Assembly: GCF_030384885.1 (NCBI RefSeq)
Contig: NZ_CP128613.1
Reading direction: 5' to 3' (one strand)
DNA from: Escherichia coli
Lineage (GTDB): Bacteria; Pseudomonadota; Gammaproteobacteria; Enterobacterales; Enterobacteriaceae
Length of the DNA stretch: 64,000 nucleotides
This document shows, one piece after another, positions 37,252 to 40,200 of the stretch. The stretch's first letter is position 1; every line of letters starts with the position of its first letter. Position numbers: made by a program.

Positions 37252-40200
37252 TAATGGGCGGTATTCTGAAACGGCGATTGTCGTGAGAACAGAATGGTTG
37301 CATCAGAATACAGATATAAAAAAACCGACATGACAGTCGGTTTTTTTATTTTTTCCGCCCAAGACTTGGTGGTTCCGGACAGAAATGAAACAGTCCTCAT
37401 CTAGCAAATGGATTATAAGTCAGGATGCCTACATATTCAAACAGCTATGTTGGCGATACAATCCCGACGCTAGTAGTGATACTGCCTCAAGGAATTACCG
37501 CAGTGCGGAAAAGTACTTTTAAGTCCTGGTCAGGATACAGGTGGTGCTGATTCTGGTGCTCTAATTTGGAGAGAGGCAGTCCTCATCTAGCACATGAAGA
37601 AAATCATAGTTACAGGCAACGTAAGGGTAAGCTGTGATTGTCTTTCTCCCTTAAGGGAGCAACGGATGAAAACTTTTCTCGATAAAGTTCTCATCGTTCT
37701 TAAGGCGCTAATCGCGCTGCTGGAACTGATCCGCCAGTTTATTGAATAACTGAGGAAACGTAGCTAAGGCCGAAGGTTTACCACCTTCGGCCTTTAAAAA
37801 AACCGACATGACAGTTGGTTTCAGATTTATTGCCAAAATGCACGCTGTTCATGCCAGATGCGGCGTGAACGCCTTATCCGGCCTACAAAATCTCGAAAAC
37901 TCAATATATTGCACGATCTTCGTAGGCCAGATAAGACTTAGCGCATCAGGCAATCTAACACCTGTCATCACCCCGCAAACTGCCTGAACAGCGCCTTACC
38001 CTTAACCAGTCGCGCACCCAACCAGCCGCCGAAAAGCGACAGCAGCAGTGCACCGCTACAAGGCAGAACAATCCACAATCGCCAGTCTGGCTCCCACGGG
38101 AAATCAAACACTTTTGATTGCAGTACCGCCAGTGCCGTTTCCGCACCAATTGCGGCCACCAGGCCGGAGACAAACCCGAGCATGGCGAACTCACACCACA
38201 ATGTCGTGCGCAGCAGTTTTTTGCCCGCACCGAGAGTGCGCCACACCACCAGCTCCTGATGACGCTGACGCATTCCCACCTGCACCTGTGCCAGCAACAG
38301 CAACATACCGCAGGCGGTGACCAGCACCACCATCACTTCCAGCGCCCGACTTACCTGCTCCAGCACCTGACCGACCTGTTTTAAAATCGCGCCAATGTCT
38401 AACAGGCTAATGGTCGGGAACTGGCGGTTGAGTTGCGTCAACATGCCGTTGCCATTCTCCCAGCGGAAACTGGTAAGCCAGCTCTGCGGCTGCCCGTCTA
38501 ATGCCCCTTCCGGGAAAATAAAATAGAAATTAGGCCGCAGACTTTCCCAGTCCACTTTGCGCAGGCTGGTCACTTTAGCGCGGAACTCCTGGGTATCGCC
38601 CATAAAGGTGACGGTATCGCCGAGGGTAACATTTAAGCGTTTCGCCAGCCCCTCTTCCATCGATACTTCATCGGCTTTTGGCGGCCAGTTACCAGCGACA
38701 ATCGGATTATGATCGGGCCGCGTATTTTGCCAGGTGAGATTGAGTTCGCGGTTGAGCGCCTCATCTTCATTGCCTTCTGTCGGCTTGCCGTTAATCGCCG
38801 TCAGCCGCGCCCGCACCACCGGATAAAACGATTCCGGGACTATCTGATGTTCCGCGAGGAACGCTTTTAGCGGAGTAACCTGTTCTGTGGCGATGTTGAT
38901 TAAAAAGTAGTTAGGACTTTCTGGCGGTAGCTGCTGTTGCCAGCGATCGAGCAGATCGCCACGCAACACCAGCAACAGTGCCAGCAGCATAAAGGAGAGC
39001 GAAAATGCCGAAAGCTGGCTTAACGTTGACCACGGCTGACGTAACAGGCGGCTAACCGCCAGGCGCAGAGGTAGCGATTTCAGCGTCATGCGGCGAAGTA
39101 CATTCAGCAGCATCCAGCCCAGCACACCGCACAGCAAAGCCAGTACTACCGCGCCCGCCAGCACCGCCCAGAGCAGCATACTGCCGCCCATTAATCCGGC
39201 GAGCAGCAGCACAACCACCACACTGACAATCGGCAGATAAAACTTGAGCGGCCAGACGTTCGCGACCACATCATTACGCAATACGCGTAAAGGCTGTGTT
39301 GCCAGCAACAAGCGGTACGGTCGTAGCCCCACCAGCAGCGAGATGACCGTCATGGTGCCAAGCGCCCACAGCCATGGCCAGAGGCTGGCAGGCGGTAGTG
39401 CGGCAGGCAGAACGGGCTTGAGCAGCACCATCAACACGTTTTCGAACAACAGGCCTATCGCCCCGCCGGTAACGGCTGAAAGCGCCAGCACCATCAGCCA
39501 CTGACCGACGATTAGCTTACGCAGTTGCGCTCGCCCAGCCCCCAGCGTTTTGAGGATCGCCACCAGATCGTAGCGACTACGACAGTAATGATTCATCGCC
39601 ACCGCCACCGCTGCCACTGCCAGCAGCAAGGTCAGAAGCGCCGAAAGCAGCAGAAACTGTTGCGAGCGTTCCATCGATCGCCCCAGCGCGCCTTCGTCCT
39701 GTTCCAGACCGTACCAGCGTTGTTCGGGTTTAAGCTGAGGTAACAACCATTTCTCATAGCCGTCGAGCTGGTTCTCGCTGCCGCCGAATTTATAGCGCCA
39801 GGTGACCCGACTCCCCGGCTGCACGGCTCCGGTTTTATCAACATCCGCCAGATTCATCATCAGACGCGGAGCCATCTGGAAGGGGTTAAAACCGGAATCC
39901 GGTTCCTGAATCACTTCTCCGGCAATCCGCAAGGTGGCATCGCCCACGTCAATGGTGTCGCCCGTTTTCAGGTTAAGCAATGCCATCAGGCGTGGGGCCA
40001 GCAATACGCTGCCCGCCTGTGGTTTCAGGCCAGGGGGATTGGTTTGCAGATCGCCATACATCGGGTAGATATCATCCACCGCTTTGACGTTCGCCAGTTG
40101 CGGCGTATCGCCCGCAAAAGTCATCGTGGCGAAAGTCAGCTGCTTGCCGACTTTCAGGCCGCGCTTTTGCGCTTCCTCCAGCCACGCTTGCGGCACTTCG

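What the first reader, a model, noticed from the sequence alone, without database searches (positions are those of the whole stretch)
37255..37967. rhsD element absent: mnmH and ybbP separated by only ~0.7 kb
Established knowledge: in K-12, rhsD-ybbC-ylbH-ybbD lies between ybbP and mnmH. Here the two conserved genes are separated by 713 bp of non-coding or small-ORF sequence with REP-like elements, so this strain lacks that Rhs polymorphic-toxin locus. The interval seems to be a hotspot that alternately holds Rhs or small toxin elements.
Basis: partly seen in the sequence, partly recalled or inferred. Interest (0 to 1): 0.3.

Follow-up and report, generated by a model that had tools for sequence, protein, structure and literature searches.

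The report
Small RNA-controlled toxin cassette replaces rhsD
In this E. coli strain the gap between mnmH and ybbP lacks the K-12 rhsD island and instead holds a 570-bp dinQ-like toxin/antisense-RNA cassette plus REP repeats, an ordinary, already annotated variant of a known variable spot.

Summary
mnmH (36160-37254, +) and ybbP (37968-40382, -) are 713 bp apart. K-12 has 7.3 kb there: rhsD-ybbC-ylbH-ybbD-ylbI-ylbG.

The interval is not empty. Alignment with cassette-free strains defines a 570-bp cassette (37269-37838), followed by two REP elements. The cassette is a type I toxin-antitoxin module of the DinQ/AgrB (dinQ-like, "dql") family:
- a 27-aa hydrophobic peptide (NCBIfam DinQ, 40.9 bits; cutoff 30);
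- a divergent ~89-nt AgrB-like antisense RNA (Rfam RF02891, 51.9 bits; threshold 40) with a good sigma-70 promoter;
- a 14-nt perfect sRNA/5'UTR complementarity, extendable to about 24 pairs;
- the family's mutually exclusive 5'UTR helices, supported by covariation.

It has no LexA box and only one full Agr copy. It is a second paralog, because the canonical dinQ locus is in 5422 of 5426 genomes.

Occupants across 5426 complete E. coli genomes:
- Rhs: 2859
- Hcp-Tle1 plus DUF2931 genes: 574
- this cassette: 1325, of which 190 carry a 108-bp toxin-killing deletion
- REP-only: about 531
- other: about 137

However, the rhs polymorphism (2009), the dql family (2016) and the toxin gene (RefSeq "dinQ") are already known. 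Interest is low.

The parts
36160..37254 (+). mnmH (selU/ybbB), conserved left flank
   Evidence: ORF; RefSeq annotation
37255..37268 (.). 14 nt after the mnmH stop, shared by cassette-bearing and empty sites (left junction ...ATTCTG|)
   Evidence: alignment A1
37269..37838 (.). 570-bp dinQ-like (dql) type I toxin-antitoxin cassette, absent from empty-site strains
   Evidence: Boundaries from alignment with ATCC 25922, XDL, AF3 and GN05064. Found in 1325 of 5426 genomes, one copy each, chromosomes only.
37316..37404 (-). AgrB-like antisense sRNA (antitoxin), about 89 nt
   Evidence: Rfam RF02891: 51.9 bits against a gathering score of 40, full model length. Fold z = -4.7.
37316..37349 (.). Bidirectional intrinsic terminator (14-bp stem, T-runs on both strands) that ends mnmH and the sRNA
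37412..37440 (-). sRNA promoter TTGAAT-17-TATAAT (10 of 12 matches); predicted start at about 37404-37405
   Evidence: the position agrees with the 5' end of the Rfam match
37457..37462 (+). Toxin promoter -10 hexamer TACAAT with a poor -35; no LexA box
   Evidence: Aligned with the TATAAT/TATGAT -10 hexamers of eight homologous loci, each 6-7 nt upstream of a conserved G start. LexA scans.
37469..37796 (+). Predicted full-length toxin mRNA (~328 nt), 5'UTR 37469-37665
   Evidence: The 5' end is inferred from family alignment and a/a' pairing. Fold z = -5.2. K-12 dinQ has the same architecture (PMC5066626).
37469..37488 (+). 5' 'lock' (element 1 plus a), which pairs with 37572-37591 and hides the sRNA target in the full-length mRNA
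   Evidence: MFE structure; a/a' covariation
37567..37592 (+). sRNA target site and element 2. It contains the exact repeat CAGTCCTCATCTAGCA (37577-37592), also found at 37391-37406.
37640..37659 (+). Element 3 (GTCTTTCTCC) and the SD-sequestering hairpin CUCCC-UUAA-GGGAG; SD AAGGGAG at 37653-37659
37666..37749 (+). Toxin ORF, 27 aa: MKTFLDKVLIVLKALIALLELIRQFIE
   Evidence: NCBIfam NF041472 toxin_DinQ: 40.9 bits against a cutoff of 30. RefSeq WP_349808740.1. All three ORF polymorphisms are synonymous.
37766..37794 (+). Toxin mRNA terminator hairpin (12-bp GC-rich stem, short U tract)
   Evidence: Inverted repeat I4. The homologous hairpin is present in all family members. It is not listed by the terminator scan because its T-run is short.
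37795..37838 (.). Truncated second copy of the sRNA gene's 3' end (27 nt, 96% identical to 37317-37343). It forms the right edge of the cassette.
37843..37953 (.). Two REP elements (BIME-like), also present in the empty-site strains
37968..40382 (-). ybbP, conserved right flank

Best explanation
The mnmH-ybbP interval is a variable chromosomal spot where E. coli strains carry one of several alternative inserts. This strain has no rhsD island. It has a 570-bp dinQ-like (dql) type I toxin-antitoxin cassette followed by REP elements. By homology with dinQ/agrB and the plasmid dqlB/agrB system, the mechanism would be as follows. A weak sigma-70 promoter, with no LexA box, makes a ~328-nt mRNA. Its 5' end pairs with an internal segment, and its Shine-Dalgarno sequence is shut in a hairpin, so the primary transcript is inert. 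Removal of the 5' ~40 nt frees element 2 to pair with element 3, which opens the Shine-Dalgarno sequence and allows translation of a 27-aa membrane-active peptide. A divergently transcribed ~89-nt AgrB-like RNA is made from a strong promoter. Its 5' end binds element 2 (14 perfect base pairs, about 24 with G-U). That restores the closed hairpin and probably triggers RNase III cleavage, which keeps the toxin off. Shown here: the anatomy, family membership, complementarity, covariation and distribution. Inferred: transcription, processing, toxicity and repression.
For: Gap and gene order. Cassette boundaries against empty sites.

Toxin: NCBIfam DinQ, 40.9 bits against a cutoff of 30. The peptide is invariant, with 3 synonymous and 0 non-synonymous polymorphisms.

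sRNA: Rfam AgrB, 51.9 bits against a threshold of 40, E = 7.5e-6 over the 64-kb window. Its TTGAAT-17-TATAAT promoter is correctly placed.

Pairing: a 16-nt exact repeat. The cognate duplex is -38.8 to -42.6 kcal/mol with 24 contiguous pairs. In a 10x9 matrix, each of the nine cognate antitoxin sRNAs pairs best with its own locus's target; the tenth sRNA, K-12 AgrA, does not.

mRNA folds: full-length z = -5.2, with the 5' lock and closed SD. The truncated form shows element 2:3 pairing.

Covariation over 9 loci: the closed form is 100% paired, with 4 pairs changed on both sides and 0 of 500 shuffles reaching the score. The open form is 86.7% paired, with 6 pairs changed on both sides and 0 of 500 shuffles reaching the score. 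The window contributes compensatory changes to both.

Conservation: the cassette's RNA genes differ by about 1% between strains, against 3-6% for the flanking gene ends and 8-10% for the REPs.

Mechanism in relatives: PMC5066626 (dinQ switch, +44 processing, RNase III) and PMC12365149 (DqlB toxic, agrB rescues, compensatory mutants).

Hotspot tally.
Against: There is no expression or toxicity data for this locus. The cognate sRNA-target duplex is the weakest of the nine loci compared (-42.6 against -57 to -71 kcal/mol). It is only 2-3 kcal/mol better than some non-cognate sRNAs. The toxin promoter has a poor -35, and the terminator scan does not call the mRNA terminator. In the MFE of the truncated mRNA, the SD is still partly paired with an upstream GCUCU. 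190 of 1325 cassettes have lost the toxin's 5' part, so the toxin is dispensable. The covariation alignment was registered by hand from a structure hypothesis, which favours that structure.
Confidence: 0.8

Rival explanations
1. The cassette is an inert, decaying relic of a toxin-antitoxin module. It is neither expressed nor selected, and is simply carried along in the hotspot.
For: It has the weakest cognate duplex in the family and a weak toxin -35. It has only one full sRNA copy plus a truncated second copy. 14% of cassettes carry a toxin-killing 108-bp deletion.
Against: All functional elements are intact in 1135 genomes. The RNA genes are 3-10 times less divergent than the neighbouring coding and REP DNA, and the three ORF polymorphisms are all synonymous. 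Compensatory substitutions specific to this locus preserve both alternative helices.
Confidence: 0.14
2. The gene is the SOS-inducible dinQ itself, as the RefSeq product name 'damage-inducible type I toxin DinQ' implies, relocated to this site.
For: The PGAP name and the NCBIfam 'equivalog' hit above cutoff.
Against: The canonical gor-dinQ-agrA-agrB-arsR locus is present in 5422 of 5426 genomes, so at most 4 of the 1325 cassette carriers can lack it. Escherichia sp. E1V33 carries both loci. There is no CTG-N10-CAG anywhere in the interval. The best LexA-like 20-mer has 5 of 6 core and 11 of 20 total matches, against 6 of 6 and 15 of 20 for K-12 dinQ. DNA identity to K-12 dinQ is only about 68-70%.
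Confidence: 0.04
3. The 713 bp is only the scar of a precise rhsD deletion: non-functional spacer with REPs.
For: Empty sites of 58-240 bp made of REP sequence exist in about 531 genomes.
Against: K-12's Rhs flanks share no sequence with the cassette. Homology to the window ends about 17 nt after the mnmH stop and resumes at the ybbP stop. The extra 570 bp relative to empty sites is a complete, family-typical toxin-antitoxin module.
Confidence: 0.02

Closest known systems
dinQ-agrA/agrB type I toxin-antitoxin locus of E. coli K-12 (gor-arsR intergenic region; Weel-Sneve 2013 PMC3567139; Kristiansen 2016 PMC5066626)
   Same: A 27-aa hydrophobic peptide with the shared core LIALLELIR. A divergent upstream ~85-nt sRNA whose 5' end pairs with the toxin 5'UTR. 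An mRNA of about 330 nt. The 5' lock, the SD hairpin and the alternative 2:3 helix. A similar terminator.
   Different: A different chromosomal site. About 68-70% DNA identity. No LexA box over the -10. One full sRNA copy instead of two. Shorter and weaker sRNA-target complementarity (14 perfect bp against 23; -39 to -43 against -58 kcal/mol). The C-terminus RQFIE resembles DqlB rather than DinQ.
dql (dinQ-like) genes, dqlA/dqlB, of Enterobacteriaceae chromosomes and plasmids (Kristiansen 2016); DqlB-agrB addiction module of pOXA-48 (PMC12365149)
   Same: The same architecture: a single Agr-like sRNA, a sigma-70 promoter without a LexA box, and the four 5'UTR elements. Homologs at 60-80% identity occur on 1720 plasmids, mostly conjugative. 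This cassette is best filed here.
   Different: It is chromosomal, fixed at one site, and single-copy. It falls below the NCBIfam DqlB cutoff (24.5 against 35), so it is not DqlB. An addiction role is not obviously applicable to a 570-bp chromosomal insert. I could not confirm whether this exact locus was among the 14 dql genes of the 2016 paper, because its supplement was not available.
Rhs locus 3 (rhsD) between ybbA/ybbP and ybbB/mnmH (Hill and co-workers; Jackson 2009 PMC2935791)
   Same: The same chromosomal interval, with presence or absence that varies by strain.
   Different: No rhs sequence at all is present here. The occupant is an unrelated RNA-regulated toxin module.
tisB/istR-1, shoB/ohsC and zorO/orzO type I systems
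   Same: A divergent, non-overlapping antisense sRNA. A long structured 5'UTR that needs processing. A small membrane toxin. Copy-number and toxin-less variants between strains (PMC11264685).
   Different: No sequence homology was detected here beyond the organisation.

Membership tests
DinQ/AgrB (dinQ-like, dql) type I toxin-antitoxin family | Small (~27-31 aa) hydrophobic single-helix peptide matching the DinQ profile | tested here: met
   NF041472 toxin_DinQ: 40.9 bits, cutoff 30, E = 1.8e-10. K-12 DinQ scores 54.0.
DinQ/AgrB (dinQ-like, dql) type I toxin-antitoxin family | Agr-type sRNA gene upstream of the toxin gene, divergent and not overlapping it | tested here: met
   Rfam RF02891 AgrB: 51.9 bits, threshold 40, full length, at 37404..37316. 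Promoter with 10 of 12 matches.
DinQ/AgrB (dinQ-like, dql) type I toxin-antitoxin family | The 5' end of the sRNA is complementary to the toxin 5'UTR upstream of the SD, and is specific to its own locus | tested here: met
   A 16-nt exact repeat. 24 contiguous pairs, 14 of them a perfect Watson-Crick run. The cognate target is the best of nine, although the margin is small.
DinQ/AgrB (dinQ-like, dql) type I toxin-antitoxin family | Four 5'UTR elements that form mutually exclusive helices (1:2 + 3:4 closed SD, against 2:3 open SD) | tested here: met
   Folds. Covariation on 9 loci: 100% and 86.7% of cells paired, and 0 of 500 shuffles reach the covariation score. Caveat: the alignment was registered by hand.
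DinQ/AgrB (dinQ-like, dql) type I toxin-antitoxin family | Peptide is toxic, and the sRNA represses it by base-pairing | not testable with these tools
   Shown only for K-12 dinQ/agrB (PMC3567139, PMC5066626) and pOXA-48 dqlB/agrB (PMC12365149).
dinQ proper (SOS regulon member) | LexA box overlapping the promoter | tested here: not met
   No CTG-N10-CAG in 37255-37967. The best relaxed match is 5 of 6 core and 11 of 20 total.
dinQ proper (SOS regulon member) | Located between gor and arsR with agrA and agrB | tested here: not met
   It lies between mnmH and ybbP. The canonical locus is a separate locus in 5422 of 5426 genomes.
DqlB subfamily | Match to NF041473 above its cutoff (31-aa peptide with an AVAALANALIA insert) | tested here: not met
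   24.5 bits against a cutoff of 35. The peptide is 27 aa and lacks the insert.
Rhs element (rhsD, locus 3) | Large rhs core ORF with a C-terminal toxin tip and an immunity gene between ybbP and mnmH | tested here: not met
   The largest ORF in the gap is 59 aa. There is no similarity to the K-12 Rhs flanks.
REP/BIME repeats | Imperfect palindromes of about 35 nt, present in many copies per genome | tested here: met
   Partial naRNA4 and ES036 hits at 37847-37929. The median is 25 matching places per genome.

The most novel reading that the evidence does not exclude
The cassette is not a mere duplicate of dinQ. It would be a LexA-independent chromosomal dql whose sRNA, like K-12's orphan AgrA, is kept mainly to neutralise related Dql toxins brought in by conjugative plasmids (anti-addiction). 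This would explain three things. First, 190 genomes keep the sRNA gene but have deleted the toxin's 5' end. Second, K-12 AgrA pairs better with a plasmid dqlB target than with dinQ. Third, the mnmH-ybbP hotspot holds only conflict modules (Rhs, Hcp-Tle1, dql).
Probability: 0.08. Interest if true: 0.45.

Novelty: already known. Interest (0 to 1): 0.17.

Why it matters
It matters little beyond bookkeeping.

- It confirms that one chromosomal interval in E. coli alternates between three unrelated toxin systems and an empty state, and gives the frequencies.
- It shows that the RefSeq name 'damage-inducible DinQ' is misleading for this paralog, which has no LexA box.
- It points out that the antitoxin sRNA gene is not annotated.
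- Anyone who studies dinQ phenotypes, SOS-linked persistence or plasmid Dql addiction in non-K-12 strains should know that about a quarter of E. coli carry this second, differently regulated copy.

Tried and rejected
- LexA regulation: exact and relaxed scans found no box.
- Tandem or multiple copies of the cassette: one place per genome and none on true plasmids. The three near-identical 'plasmid' hits are 1.2-4.9 Mb records, i.e. mislabelled chromosomes.
- Pfam: no family for the peptide.
- Longer 51-aa ORF (37594-37749), used by older annotations: rejected. Its ATG lies inside the sRNA target without an SD, whereas AAGGGAG sits 6 nt before the ATG at 37666. The 45-aa ORF at 37385-37522 spans the two promoters and is not conserved as an ORF in relatives.
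- Whole-RNA duplexfold energies were uninformative, because the sRNA gene is an inverted partial copy of the 5'UTR. I restricted the calculation to the 5' 36-39 nt.
- The automatic MAFFT alignment of the 5'UTRs (A2) was out of register at element 3 and the SD. I replaced it with a hand-registered 60-column alignment (A3).
- The genome-contig scan with an exact degenerate pattern found only 13 loci. It cannot establish the ancestral state in other Escherichia species.
- The supplement of Kristiansen 2016, which lists the dql loci, is not held. I therefore could not check whether this exact locus was already listed.
- No target-site duplication or microhomology was seen at the cassette borders.

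Full report
**Observation.** The window is identical to E. coli 2013C-4282 (NZ_CP027579.1) over the interval. mnmH ends at 37254 and the convergent ybbP ends at 37968, so 713 bp separate them. In K-12 MG1655 the same two genes are 7301 bp apart. They are separated there by rhsD, ybbC, ylbH, ybbD, ylbI and the IS-remnant ylbG. The largest ORF in the gap is 59 aa, so no Rhs element is present.

**What is in the 713 bp.** I aligned the window with strains whose gap is only 58-240 bp (ATCC 25922, XDL, AF3, GN05064). The extra DNA is one discrete block of 570 bp, 37269-37838. It is inserted between ...ATTCTG and TGCACGC..., with no target duplication. To its right lie two REP elements (about 37843-37953) that the empty sites also have.

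The block contains the following parts.
- A 27-aa ORF at 37666-37749, MKTFLDKVLIVLKALIALLELIRQFIE. RefSeq calls it dinQ. It scores 40.9 bits on NCBIfam toxin_DinQ (cutoff 30) and falls below the cutoff on the DqlB model. An AAGGGAG Shine-Dalgarno sequence sits 6 nt upstream.
- A full-length match to Rfam AgrB on the opposite strand at 37404..37316 (51.9 bits, gathering score 40). It ends in a perfect bidirectional terminator. It is preceded by TTGAAT-17-TATAAT, correctly placed for a start near 37404.
- A 16-nt exact repeat, CAGTCCTCATCTAGCA, at 37391 and 37577. This makes the sRNA's 5' end complementary to the toxin's 5'UTR.
- A GC-rich terminator hairpin at 37766-37794.
- A 27-nt, 96% identical copy of the sRNA terminator at 37795-37821. 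Its similarity to the sRNA gene appears to continue to the cassette edge. I read it as the stump of a second sRNA copy, left from a tandem array of the kind seen on a Salmonella IncFII plasmid.

**Comparison with relatives.** K-12's dinQ-agrA-agrB locus and homologs from IncX1, IncX7 and IncFII plasmids, Photorhabdus, Pantoea and Kosakonia all share the plan: sRNA, divergent promoters, a long 5'UTR, a small ORF and a terminator. In each, a -10 hexamer lies 6-7 nt before a G that begins GUUAG (GCUAG in the window). That start pairs with the CUAAC (CUAGC in the window) at the end of the sRNA target. This places the window's -10 at TACAAT (37457-37462) and the start at G37469.

Kristiansen et al. 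2016 (PMC5066626) showed the mechanism for dinQ.
- The primary transcript is translationally inert, because element 1 pairs with element 2 and element 3 closes the SD (element 4).
- Removal of 44 nt lets elements 2 and 3 pair, which opens the SD.
- AgrB binds element 2, re-closes the SD and directs RNase III cleavage.

The window has all of this.
- The full-length RNA folds with its first 20 nt paired to 37572-37591 and with a CUCCC-UUAA-GGGAG hairpin over the SD (z = -5.2).
- The RNA truncated at 37513 pairs GGAGAGAGGC with GUCUUUCUCC.
- On a hand-registered alignment of nine loci, the closed-form helices are paired in 100% of cells, with 4 pairs changed on both sides. The open-form helix is paired in 86.7% of cells, with 6 such pairs. 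In both cases no shuffle of 500 reaches the covariation score, and the slid controls score far lower.
- The window supplies its own compensatory changes (C-G at a/a', C-G in the SD stem, A-U in 2:3).

In a duplex-energy matrix, each of the nine cognate antitoxin sRNAs prefers its own toxin's target; the tenth sRNA tested, K-12 AgrA, does not. This co-evolution is the best in-silico evidence that these pairs function. The window's pair is nevertheless the weakest: -42.6 kcal/mol with 14 perfect pairs, against -57 to -71 kcal/mol elsewhere.

**Differences from dinQ proper.**
- There is no LexA box. No CTG-N10-CAG occurs in the interval, and the best relaxed match has 11 of 20 positions. The K-12 box TACTGTATGATTATCCAGTT overlaps the dinQ -10.
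- There is one complete sRNA gene, not two.
- The cassette is an additional paralog. The gor-arsR dinQ region is in 5422 of 5426 genomes, and Escherichia sp. E1V33 has both loci.
- It therefore fits the 'dql' (dinQ-like) class that Kristiansen et al. described in chromosomes and plasmids. A plasmid member of that class, DqlB-agrB of pOXA-48, has been shown to be toxic, sRNA-repressed through base-pairing, and an addiction module (PMC12365149).
- The RefSeq label 'damage-inducible' is a homology transfer that the sequence does not support.

**Population picture.** I used junction-specific queries against 5426 complete E. coli genomes.

| State of the mnmH-ybbP interval | Genomes | Calls |
|---|---|---|
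| K-12-type ybbP-rhsD junction (Rhs) | 2859 | 41 |
| 667-aa Hcp(TssD)-Tle1 fusion plus DUF2931 genes (four in the example strain E138; compare Hcp-ET2, PMC6730261) | 574 | 27, 42 |
| dql cassette | 1325 | 25 |
| mnmH and ybbP within 900 bp but no cassette (1856 minus 1325) | about 531 | 17 |
| Unassigned | about 137 | by subtraction |

The cassette is always single-copy and chromosomal. 190 of the 1325 cassettes carry an identical 108-bp deletion between AGTCCTCATC and AGTTCTCATC. It removes the sRNA target, the SD and the first eight codons but keeps the sRNA gene and its promoter.

Between strains, the sRNA, 5'UTR, ORF and 3'UTR differ by about 1%. The adjacent 400 bp of mnmH and of ybbP differ by 3-6%, and the REPs by 8-10%. 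The three ORF polymorphisms are all synonymous. This argues for purifying selection on the RNAs and the peptide, or for recent spread of the cassette.

**Known or new.**
- Jackson et al. 2009 (PMC2935791, Table 3) tabulated strain-variable presence of Rhs between ybbA and ybbB as locus 3.
- The dql family was defined in 2016.
- The exact 27-aa peptide occurs on at least 1000 public contigs under the name DinQ.
- What this analysis adds is incremental: precise cassette borders, the unannotated sRNA with its promoter, the absence of a LexA box, the four-state tally, and the deletion allele.

I therefore rate the finding as already known and of low interest.

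Noticed in passing
L003:3064-3145 (K-12 agrA) versus L013 (Salmonella IncFII plasmid, second dqlB copy, about 2200-2380): K-12 AgrA is reported not to regulate dinQ. In the duplex-energy matrix it pairs best with the 5'UTR target of a plasmid dqlB (-49.6 kcal/mol, against -42.7 for dinQ; shared CATCATCTAA). It might be an antitoxin against plasmid-borne Dql toxins.
   Followed up: no
L004, L033, L034 (equivalent to window 37578-37685): 190 of the 1325 cassettes share one 108-bp deletion that removes the sRNA target, the SD and the start of the toxin but keeps the sRNA gene. It occurs with ybbP flanks that differ at 23 of 400 positions. PGAP annotates an ATT-start 25-aa 'dinQ' on the remnant in strain M25631H.
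   Followed up: partly
L010:11156-15833 (E. coli E138): A third occupant of the same interval: a 667-aa Hcp(TssD)-Tle1 fusion followed by four DUF2931 genes (probable immunity genes), present in 574 genomes. mnmH is 12 nt longer there, so the junction lies inside its 3' end.
   Followed up: partly
window 36855-37254 and 37968-38367: The 3' ends of mnmH and ybbP next to the hotspot differ by 3-6% between E. coli strains. Only 5 of 5420 genomes are at least 99% identical to the window there. The 570-bp cassette between them differs by less than 2%.
   Followed up: partly
window 50629-64000: Another accessory block next to cueR: a type I secretion system (HlyD adaptor, permease/ATPase) and a giant BapA-related adhesin gene, siiEA. 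The ORF is 3319 aa within the window, and RefSeq annotates the gene as frameshifted and running beyond the window.
   Followed up: partly
window 37594-37749: RefSeq is inconsistent about the toxin start. Some genomes carry a 51-aa CDS (WP_001308457.1) and others the 27-aa CDS (WP_349808740.1). The SD position supports the 27-aa form.
   Followed up: yes
L019, L020, L023: Contigs binned as 'Lachnospiraceae' or 'uncultured bacterium' MAGs carry E. coli-type gor-dinQ or IncX-type dql DNA at 97-100% identity. This is probably binning contamination.
   Followed up: no
window 24229-24295 (-), 15986-16064 (-), 2638-2711 (-): Other Rfam matches above the gathering score in the window: STnc480 sRNA, a full-length naRNA4 (REP-derived), and a tRNA.
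   Followed up: no
L009:6109-7470 and L010:3760-4638: Pseudogenes with internal stops in the neighbouring allantoin cluster: allB in O157:H7 ECP19-198 and glxR in E138.
   Followed up: no
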